The position numbers and the translations under genes were made by a program. Shown one piece after another: positions 165 to 861 of a DNA stretch of 5,487 nucleotides. Below the pieces are notes generated by a model. The model did not search any database. It was not told the DNA's origin and saw only the letters and a program-made list of their open reading frames with translations. Position 1 is the stretch's first letter, and each line of letters begins with the position of its first letter. Source of the stretch: a virus (Duplodnaviria > Heunggongvirae > Uroviricota > Caudoviricetes); IMG/VR virus record IMGVR_UViG_2526164630_000029, positions 1 to 5,487 of that record; one strand, 5' to 3'.

Positions 165-861
165 TGCAGGATATCCGGCAGGAAACACTGAATGAATGCA
201 CCCGTGCGGAGCAGTCGGCCAGCGTGGTGCTCTGGGAAATCGATCTGACAGAGGTCGGTGGAGAACGTTATTTTTTCTGTAATGAGCAGAACGAAAAAGG
301 TGAGCCGGTCACCTGGCAGGGGCGACAGTATCAGGCATACCCCATTCAGGGGAGCGGTTTTGAACTGAATGGCAAAGGCACCAGTACGCGGCCCACGCTG
401 GCAGTCTCTAACCTGTACGGCATGGTCACCGGTATGGTGGAAGATATGCAGAGTCTGGTCGGCGGAACGGTAGTCCGGCGTAAGGTTTACGCCCGTTTTC
501 TGGATGCGGTGAATTTTGTGGCGGGCAATCCGGAAGCGGACCCGGAGCAGGAGCTGAGCGACCGCTGGGTGGTGGAGCAGATGTCAGAGCTGACGGCCAT
601 GACAGCCTCGTTTGTGCTGGCAACACCGACGGAGACGGACGGAGCGCTGTTTCCCGGTCGCATCATGCTGGCGAACACCTGTATGTGGGATTACCGGGGA
701 GATGAATGCGGGTATAACGGTCCTGCGGTGGCGGATGAGTTCGATAAACCCACACCGATATCCGTAAGGACAGATGCAGCAAGTGCATGCGCGGGTGTGA
801 GATGCGCGGCATGGTGGCTAATTTTGGCAGTTTCCTTTCCATTAACAAACTTTCGCAGTAA
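164..861 (+). CDS. L: Tail tip assembly protein L (lambda gpL-like), interrupted by an apparent 1-nt deletion near 752-757
   Basis: ATG at 164. The N-terminal ~197 residues (MQDIRQETLNECTRAEQSASVVLWEIDLTEVGGERYFFCNEQNEKGEPVTWQGRQYQ...GPAVADEFDKPT) are lambda-L-like. After about 755 the six-frame ORF (164..871) gives an unconserved tail, whereas the frame one base back gives DIRKDRCSKCMRGCEMRGMVANFGSFLSINKLSQ with TAA at 859-861. That is the conserved Cys-rich gpL C-terminus and restores the expected ~232 aa length. Confidence 0.88.

What the first reader, a model, noticed from the sequence alone, without database searches (positions are those of the whole stretch)
746..761. L: frame break separates the body of gpL from its conserved Cys-rich C-terminus
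Up to ...FDKPT the 164 frame is lambda-L-like. The next ~35 codons in that frame (PISVRTDAASACAGVRCAAWWLILAVSFPLTNFRSKIQ) are not, whereas the -1 frame reads DIRKDRCSKCMRGCEMRGMVANFGSFLSINKLSQ* with the C-x2-C-x3-C arrangement expected for the gpL metal-binding C-terminal domain. A CCC-to-CC contraction around 755-756 would explain it. The wrong-frame ORF ends at an ATGA overlap with the K start (869-871), which makes the uncorrected ORF look deceptively natural.
Basis: partly seen in the sequence, partly recalled or inferred. Interest (0 to 1): 0.4.

Follow-up and report, generated by a model that had tools for sequence, protein, structure and literature searches.

The report
Sequencing-error frameshift in phage gene L
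The broken reading frame in the phage tail gene L is really in the deposited sequence, but it is almost certainly one of many single-base sequencing or assembly errors in an old draft E. coli genome, not a biological feature.

Summary
The lambda-like L gene (164-) loses its frame between 748 and 756. The last 35 codons, including the C-x2-C-x3-C motif, continue in the -1 frame (754-861). One C is missing at 753: intact relatives read CCC-ACC-ACC-GAT, the window CCC-AC-ACC-GAT. Repairing it gives a 232-aa protein that aligns without gaps to lambda gpL (E=6e-138) and covers all of Pfam PF05100.

It is most likely not biology. The window is the entire 5,487-bp contig AIGX01000086.1 of the draft assembly of E. 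coli DEC11C (O45:H2). That contig carries seven private single-base indels: L 753, intergenic 860, K 1157/1319/1543, I 2125 and J 5277. It has at most nine private substitutions. A second contig of the same assembly duplicates window 1-1249 with one substitution. It is intact at 753, 860 and 1157, and has six different indels of its own.

No match to the 65-mer spanning the deletion in 5,426 complete E. coli genomes reaches 100% identity. The deleted 41-mer has no exact match in three contig collections. The "natural-looking" ATGA overlap with K exists only because of the second error, an extra A at 860-863.

Verdict: a sequencing or assembly artefact (about 0.87). A real prophage pseudogene is the minor rival. 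Interest is low.

The parts
1..164 (+). 3' end of tail gene M (lambda gpM homologue). Its TGA stop at 162-164 shares one base with the ATG of L.
   Evidence: The gene called at 1-164 hits PF05939 Phage_min_tail. Relatives annotate a phage tail protein here.
164..753 (+). Body of gene L, residues 1-197, in the original frame. It includes the Fe-S ligand equivalents Cys173 and Cys182.
   Evidence: The N-terminal ~57 residues are identical to lambda gpL, and PF05100 profile positions 1-175 are matched.
753..753 (+). Site of the missing C. Intact relatives read CCC-ACC-ACC-GAT, the window CCC-AC-ACC-GAT. The frame switch is confined to 748-756.
   Evidence: Alignments to closed E. coli prophage copies L001-L004 and L006-L008. 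Alignment to the sister contig AIGX01000063. Stop-codon map.
754..861 (+). True 3' end of gene L in the -1 frame: residues 198-232 (TDIRKDRCSKCMRGCEMRGMVANFGSFLSINKLSQ) plus TAA at 859-861. It carries Cys205, Cys208 and Cys212.
   Evidence: The Fe-S ligands in lambda gpL are Cys173, Cys182, Cys205 and Cys212 (PMC10721106).
755..871 (+). Wrong-frame tail of the deposited ORF (38 codons plus TGA). It is part of GenBank protein EHX00341.1.
860..863 (+). Run of four A just after the L stop. All relatives have three. The extra A puts TGA 869-871 in frame with the wrong-frame ORF.
868..1609 (+). Gene K (JAB/MPN plus NlpC/P60 tail-tip assembly protein), broken by three private single-base deletions: 1157 (G6 to G5), 1319 (CC to C) and 1543 (CC to C).
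   Evidence: The repaired K is 247 aa and 246/247 identical to the K of locus L003.
1605..2345 (+). Gene I, broken by a private deletion of an A at 2125. The repaired product is 193 aa.
3037..5487 (+). 5' part of gene J (host specificity protein), with a private deletion at 5277 (GG to G). It runs off the contig end.

Best explanation
The frame break is a single-base error (a lost C at 753) in the consensus of a draft whole-genome shotgun contig. The contig is AIGX01000086.1 of E. coli DEC11C, O45:H2. In the real prophage, gene L is most likely one continuous 232-codon gene. It would encode a lambda-type tail tip protein L whose C-terminal domain (Cys173, Cys182, Cys205, Cys212) holds a [4Fe-4S] cluster.

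The contig lies in a lambdoid tail module that is present in many near-identical copies per genome. Its consensus carries about 1.3 single-base indels per kb. One of them falls in the ACC-ACC codons 197-198 of L. A second one, an extra A after the L stop, happens to end the wrong-frame ORF on an ATGA overlap with K.

Shown: the break, its repair, its being private to this contig, and the excess of indels over substitutions. Inferred: that the cause is sequencing or assembly error. No reads were available.
For: 1. Source. The window is the whole 5,487-bp contig of a draft assembly. The AIGX prefix belongs to DEC 11C, serotype O45:H2 (PMC4959244).

2. Seven private indels. Against every closed-genome prophage copy examined (L001-L004, L006-L008), the window has the same seven single-base indels at 753, 860, 1157, 1319, 1543, 2125 and 5277. 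Only nine bases match none of those copies. Between 500 and 1250 there are three indels and no substitution versus L003. If indels were 10% of events, 7 or more of 16 has P=5e-4.

3. Sister contig. Contig AIGX01000063.1 of the same assembly overlaps window 1-1249 with one substitution and nine single-base indel differences (P=9e-9). It is intact at 753, 860 and 1157, and at 1319 just beyond that overlap. It has six private indels of its own versus the closed O45:H2 genome. Its L product, P0096, ends ...KPTTDIRKDRCSKCMRGCEMRGMVANFGSFLSINKLSQ.

4. Not seen elsewhere. No match to the 65-mer spanning the deletion in 5,426 complete E. coli genomes reaches 100% identity; the best of 5,340 places is 98.5%. 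The deleted 41-mer has no exact match in viral, genome or metagenome contigs. The 235-aa product is encoded on exactly one contig.

5. Repair restores the genes. Repairing the seven sites restores full-length L (232 aa), K (247 aa) and I (193 aa). The repaired L aligns gaplessly with lambda gpL (E=6e-138) and covers PF05100 fully.

6. Sequence context. Six of the seven indels lie in runs of two or more identical bases.
Against: - No read data or quality values could be examined, so the error is inferred and not observed.
- Most of the affected runs are only two bases long, and one site (2125) is not a run at all. This is not the classic long-homopolymer error profile, so the exact error mechanism is unresolved. 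It could be low coverage, or a mixed pile-up of non-identical prophage copies.
- The sequencing platform of this assembly could not be verified. The announcement paper, PMC3370608, is not held.
- The exact repaired L and K proteins are not found anywhere else, so there is no independent copy of the presumed true sequence.
- Prophage tail genes in E. coli do decay in nature.
Confidence: 0.87

Rival explanations
1. A genuine frameshift mutation. The sodC-bearing lambdoid prophage of DEC11C is a decaying, defective prophage. Its L, K, I and J genes have each been inactivated by real single-base deletions. L would then make a 235-aa protein lacking two of the four Fe-S ligands, which could not build a tail tip.
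For: - The break is present in the deposited sequence.
- EHEC-type strains carry many defective lambdoid prophages (established knowledge).
- The indels are biased towards deletions (6 of 7), as in bacterial pseudogene decay.
- sodC, the cargo gene that would stay under host selection, is intact.
Against: - About as many private indels (7) as private substitutions (9 at most) is roughly ten times more indels than the ~1:10 ratio I recall from E. coli mutation-accumulation work (my own knowledge, not checked here).
- A second contig of the same assembly shows the same excess at different sites. That pattern is a property of the assembly, not of one prophage.
- No related closed genome, including O45:H2 and O103:H2 strains, shares any of the seven indels.
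- No match to the 65-mer spanning the 753 deletion in 5,426 complete genomes reaches 100% identity.
Confidence: 0.11
2. Programmed -1 ribosomal frameshifting or another recoding event. L would be expressed as body plus Cys-rich tail by a ribosome slipping back one base around 748-756.
For: - The C-terminal domain sits in the -1 frame and is open from 748 to 861.
- Lambda-like tail operons do use a programmed -1 frameshift, but in G/GT (established knowledge).
Against: - In every homologue examined at this site, L is intact and single-frame, with flanks identical to the window.
- The zero-frame sequence GAT-AAA-CCC-ACA-CCG contains no X-XXY-YYZ slippery heptamer in phase (read directly).
- Six further frame breaks on the same contig cannot all be recoding sites.
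Confidence: 0.01

Closest known systems
Bacteriophage lambda tail tip protein L (gpL; PDB 8iyk chain L; Pfam PF05100 Phage_tail_L)
   Same: - Same length once repaired (232 aa), with a gapless end-to-end alignment (E=6e-138).
- The first ~57 residues are identical to lambda gpL.
- All five C-terminal cysteines are conserved, including the [4Fe-4S] ligands Cys173, Cys182, Cys205 and Cys212.
- Same gene order, M-L-K-I-(sodC)-J.
   Different: - As deposited, the gene is split over two frames and loses residues 198-232.
- The DNA is only about 85% identical to lambda itself.
- The middle and C-terminal parts are of the EHEC-prophage type.
Intact L genes of lambdoid prophages in closed O45:H2 and O103:H2 E. 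coli genomes (e.g. WP_001152517.1 in FWSEC0003, WP_106913053.1 in 2011C-4251)
   Same: - The repaired L differs from the FWSEC0003 copy by 2 of 232 residues (K195N, S223G).
- Window 520-1000 is identical to 2011C-4251 apart from the two indels.
   Different: - These copies have ACC-ACC at codons 197-198 and AAA after the stop.
- None has any of the seven indels.
Single-base indel errors in draft shotgun assemblies, which create false frameshifted ORFs
   Same: - The errors are private to one assembly.
- There are many per contig, mostly in short runs of one base, with almost no accompanying substitutions.
- A sister contig has a different set of errors.
   Different: - Read-level proof is lacking.
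- Several sites are in 2-base runs or no run, so they are not the textbook long-homopolymer case.

Membership tests
Lambda gpL / Pfam PF05100 Phage_tail_L | Full-length match to the family profile | tested here: met
   The deposited ORF matches profile positions 1-175 of 206 (275.7 bits). The repaired ORF matches 1-206 of 206 (316.3 bits, cut-off 25).
Lambda gpL / Pfam PF05100 Phage_tail_L | Four cysteine ligands of the C-terminal [4Fe-4S] domain (lambda Cys173, Cys182, Cys205, Cys212) encoded in one reading frame | tested here: not met
   In the sequence as deposited, Cys205 and Cys212 lie in the -1 frame. The feature is met only after inserting one base at 753.
Lambda gpL / Pfam PF05100 Phage_tail_L | Position in the tail-tip operon, between M and K-I-J | tested here: met
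   Pfam hits of neighbouring genes (PF05939, PF14464, PF24801 and others). Annotation of syntenic closed-genome loci.
Lambda gpL / Pfam PF05100 Phage_tail_L | Actual binding of an iron-sulfur cluster and incorporation into the tail tip | not testable with these tools
   This needs biochemistry or a structure. It is known for lambda gpL only from the literature (PMC10721106).
Sequencing/assembly indel artefact | The variant is private to one assembly and absent from all close relatives | tested here: met
Sequencing/assembly indel artefact | Excess of single-base indels over substitutions, seen in independent contigs of the same assembly | tested here: met
   The window has 7 private indels against at most 9 private substitutions. 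Contig 63 has 6 indels against 10 substitutions versus L006. The overlap 1-1249 shows 9 indel differences against 1 substitution.
Sequencing/assembly indel artefact | Reads disagree with, or only weakly support, the consensus at the site | not testable with these tools
   No read data are accessible.
Genuine prophage pseudogene | The lesion is shared by clonal relatives, or the mutation spectrum fits neutral decay | tested here: not met
   No related closed genome shares the lesion. The indel-to-substitution ratio is about 1:1.
Programmed -1 ribosomal frameshift site | Slippery heptamer X-XXY-YYZ in the zero frame at the junction, and a two-frame architecture conserved in homologues | tested here: not met
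   The zero-frame sequence GAT-AAA-CCC-ACA-CCG has no in-phase heptamer. Every homologue examined at this site is intact and single-frame. A downstream RNA structure was not tested.

The most novel reading that the evidence does not exclude
The single C at 753 is real in DEC11C. The strain would then carry a sodC-bearing lambdoid prophage whose tail-tip genes L, K, I and J were all knocked out by very recent single-base deletions while sodC was kept. That would be an example of rapid domestication of a prophage down to its cargo gene. It would also imply an unusual indel-prone mutational process in this strain.
Probability: 0.1. Interest if true: 0.2.

Novelty: not a real feature. Interest (0 to 1): 0.05.

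Why it matters
Biologically it matters little. Gene L here is an ordinary lambda-type tail tip gene.

Practically there are two points:

- The frameshifted product is in GenBank as EHX00341.1, "phage minor tail protein L", with a spurious 38-residue tail. The neighbouring K, I and J calls on this contig are also truncated or mis-framed, so these entries should not be used as real sequence variants.
- It shows that a tidy ATGA stop/start overlap is no evidence that an ORF is correct.

Tried and rejected
- **Exact 41-mer across the deletion.** Searched in viral contigs, genome contigs and metagenome contigs, with no hits. No independent copy of the lesion was found.
- **Announcement paper of the DEC genomes (PMC3370608) and Tam et al. 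2013 on the gpL Fe-S cluster (PMC4061613).** Neither is held. The sequencing platform is therefore unverified. From memory only, this was a 2012-era 454/Illumina draft project.
- **Exact look-up of the repaired L and K proteins.** Neither is in the 15-billion-protein collection. P0132, the one 232-aa member among the 15 listed for the product's cluster, is only 84% identical.
It is possible from the window alone, but it would give Thr-Pro-Asp. All relatives with identical flanks have Thr-Thr-Asp (ACC-ACC-GAT), so placement at 753 is preferred.
- **Programmed frameshifting.** Rejected: there is no slippery heptamer in phase and every homologue examined at this site is single-frame.
- **A collapsed-repeat chimera as the sole cause.** The window is mosaic: 1-1249 is like one prophage type and 1250-5487 like the sodC-bearing type. 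However, none of the parental-type copies carries the indels. Mosaicism alone therefore does not create them. Whether the mosaic is natural or an assembly chimera was not resolved.

Full report
**What is in the sequence**

The window encodes the tail-tip module of a lambdoid prophage:

| Feature | Coordinates | Strand |
|---|---|---|
| 3' end of M | 1-164 | + |
| L | from 164 | + |
| K | from 868 | + |
| I | from about 1605 | + |
| Cu/Zn superoxide dismutase gene sodC | 2376-2903 | - |
| 5' two-thirds of J | 3037-5487 | + |

The ORF starting at 164 reads a lambda-L-like protein up to ...ADEFDKPT (residue 197). It then reads 38 unrelated residues and stops at TGA 869-871, which overlaps the ATG of K at 868-870. 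The unrelated tail has no similarity to lambda gpL (E=14).

The -1 frame reads T-DIRKDRCSKCMRGCEMRGMVANFGSFLSINKLSQ and stops at TAA 859-861. This stretch is 70% identical to residues 199-231 of lambda gpL (E=5e-16). The last upstream stop in that frame is TAA 745-747, so the frame switch is confined to 748-756.

**Where the base is missing**

The closest intact relatives are prophage copies in closed E. coli genomes, for example strain 2011C-4251. They are identical to window 520-1000 except for two single-base indels (99.6%). They read GATAAACCCACCACCGATATC where the window reads GATAAACCCACACCGATATC. One C of the codon pair ACC-ACC (Thr197-Thr198) is missing, at window 753. It would give Thr-Pro-Asp, which none of the compared relatives has.

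Inserting the C gives a 232-aa protein. It aligns end-to-end without gaps to lambda gpL (PDB 8iyk_L, E=6e-138). The repair extends the Pfam PF05100 match from profile positions 1-175 to 1-206 of 206.

**What the lost part does**

[quoted passage not shown] The ligands are Cys173, Cys182, Cys205 and Cys212, in keeping with earlier biochemistry that showed a [4Fe-4S] cluster (PMC10721106). In the deposited frame, Cys205, Cys208 and Cys212 are lost. If the break were real, the protein would lack two of its four ligands and would presumably be non-functional. That last step is an inference.

**Where the window comes from**

An exact-protein look-up shows that the window is the complete contig AIGX01000086.1 of assembly GCA_000250155.2. 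The AIGX prefix belongs to E. coli DEC 11C, serotype O45:H2, stx1a-positive (PMC4959244). The frameshifted product is deposited as EHX00341.1, "phage minor tail protein L [Escherichia coli DEC11C]", and is seen on this one contig only. The announcement paper for these draft genomes is not held. From my own memory, unverified, this was a 2012-era 454/Illumina draft project.

**The break is one of many**

The window was aligned to seven intact prophage copies from closed genomes. Three of them come from an O45:H2 strain, FWSEC0003. Against all seven, the window shows the same seven private single-base indels:

| Position | Location | Change |
|---|---|---|
| 753 | L | CC to C |
| 860-863 | L-K intergenic | A3 to A4 |
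| 1157 | K | G6 to G5 |
| 1319 | K | CC to C |
| 1543 | K | CC to C |
| 2125 | I | a lone A lost |
| 5277 | J | GG to G |

Only nine window bases match none of the seven copies. Between 500 and 1250 there are three indels and no substitution relative to 2011C-4251. Repairing the seven sites restores L (232 aa), K (247 aa; 246/247 identical to a closed-genome K) and I (193 aa).

From my own recollection of E. coli mutation-accumulation work, natural mutation gives roughly ten substitutions per indel. Under a 10% indel fraction, 7 or more indels among 16 events has P=5e-4.

**A sister contig gives the strongest argument**

The homology search returned a second L protein from DEC11C, P0096 (222 aa). 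Its contig is AIGX01000063.1 (4,939 bp). It overlaps window 1-1249 with one substitution but nine single-base indel differences (P=9e-9 under the same 10% assumption).

Contig 63 is intact at 753, 860 and 1157. It is also intact at 1319, just beyond the near-identical stretch. Its L ends ...KPTTDIRKDRCSKCMRGCEMRGMVANFGSFLSINKLSQ. Against the closed O45:H2 genome it carries six private indels of its own: T6 to T5 and five inserted G, with ten substitutions in 4.9 kb.

Two contigs of one assembly thus have about 1.2-1.3 random single-base indels per kb, at different sites, in otherwise near-identical sequence. That is the signature of consensus errors, not of evolution.

**Absence elsewhere**

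- A 65-mer across the site finds 5,340 places in 1,740 of the 5,426 complete E. coli genomes. The best match is 98.5%, that is, with the extra base, and none reaches 100%.
- The deleted 41-mer has no exact match in the viral, species-representative genome or metagenome contig collections.
- Among the best 120 of 556 homologous proteins, the large clusters (up to about 10,000 members) are 232-aa proteins, and the one full-length example read (P0006) ends ...INKLSQ.
- The only protein found with the same wrong-frame tail, P0057 from a Logan assembly, enters that frame through a different, earlier frameshift.

**The deceptive ATGA overlap**

If only the 753 deletion were present, the wrong-frame ORF would not stop at 869-871. 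It would run on for 438 codons through K. The extra A at 860-863, the second private indel, brings the TGA into frame. The natural look of the uncorrected ORF is a coincidence of two errors.

**Rivals**

*A genuine pseudogene.* This would be a decaying prophage that keeps sodC. It cannot be excluded without reads. However, it fits poorly with the indel-to-substitution ratio, with the same pattern on a second contig, and with the absence of any of the lesions in related closed genomes. I give it about 0.11.

*Programmed -1 frameshifting.* This is rejected. The homologues examined at this site are single-frame with identical flanks. The zero-frame sequence GAT-AAA-CCC-ACA-CCG has no in-phase slippery heptamer. 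Six more breaks on the contig cannot all be recoding sites.

**Open points**

- The error mechanism is unresolved, because several sites are in 2-base runs or no run.
- The window is a mosaic: 1-1249 is like the contig-63/L006 prophage type, and 1250-5487 is like the sodC-bearing type. This may be a natural recombinant or an assembly chimera.
- The exact repaired L and K proteins are not found elsewhere.

**Verdict**

The feature is most probably an artefact of a draft assembly (confidence 0.87). It is not novel and its interest is low (0.05). The decisive test is a read pile-up or amplicon sequencing at 753 and the six other sites.

Noticed in passing
window 1157, 1319, 1543 (K); 2125 (I); 5277 (J): There are five more private single-base deletions: G6 to G5, CC to C, CC to C, a lone A lost, and GG to G. 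K is split into three frames, so the record calls only a 108-aa JAB fragment at 868-1194. I is mis-called as 1668-2345 with no Pfam hit. Repair restores K (247 aa) and I (193 aa).
   Followed up: yes
window 860-863: An extra A (A3 to A4) lies just after the true L stop. It is intergenic and harmless in itself. It is what makes the wrong-frame L ORF end on the ATGA overlap with K.
   Followed up: yes
L009 (AIGX01000063.1) 2752, 3009, 3030, 3038, 3514, 3528: The second DEC11C contig, with a near-identical M-L-K region, has its own six single-base indels: T6 to T5 and five inserted G. Its L product, P0096 (222 aa), has a wrong-frame N-terminus and a wrong-frame internal patch. This suggests assembly-wide indel errors, at least in prophage repeats.
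   Followed up: partly
window 1-1249 versus 1250-5487: The contig is mosaic. The left part is nearly identical to a prophage type without sodC (L006 and contig 63). The right part matches the sodC-bearing type (L001, L008), and positions 1250-1271 match a third type (L003). This could be a natural lambdoid recombinant or a chimeric repeat contig.
   Followed up: partly
window 2376-2903 (- strand): An intact Cu/Zn superoxide dismutase gene sodC (175 aa, PF00080) sits between I and J, as in the EHEC prophages that carry this cargo gene. The 344-aa ORF listed at 2376-3410 is only an upstream GTG extension of it.
   Followed up: partly
proteins P0010, P0014, P0033, P0057: Other public L proteins are frameshifted in or near the C-terminal domain. 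One, P0010, comes from a 5.5-Mb NCBI contig and shifts frame right after CSKCLS. P0057 enters the same wrong frame as the window from an earlier break. Whether these are errors or real pseudogenes is unknown.
   Followed up: no
proteins P0001 and P0004: Two L proteins (307 aa from E. coli, 289 aa from Shigella sonnei) contain an internal duplication of the Cys-rich C-terminal region. These may be tandem duplications or assembly artefacts.
   Followed up: no
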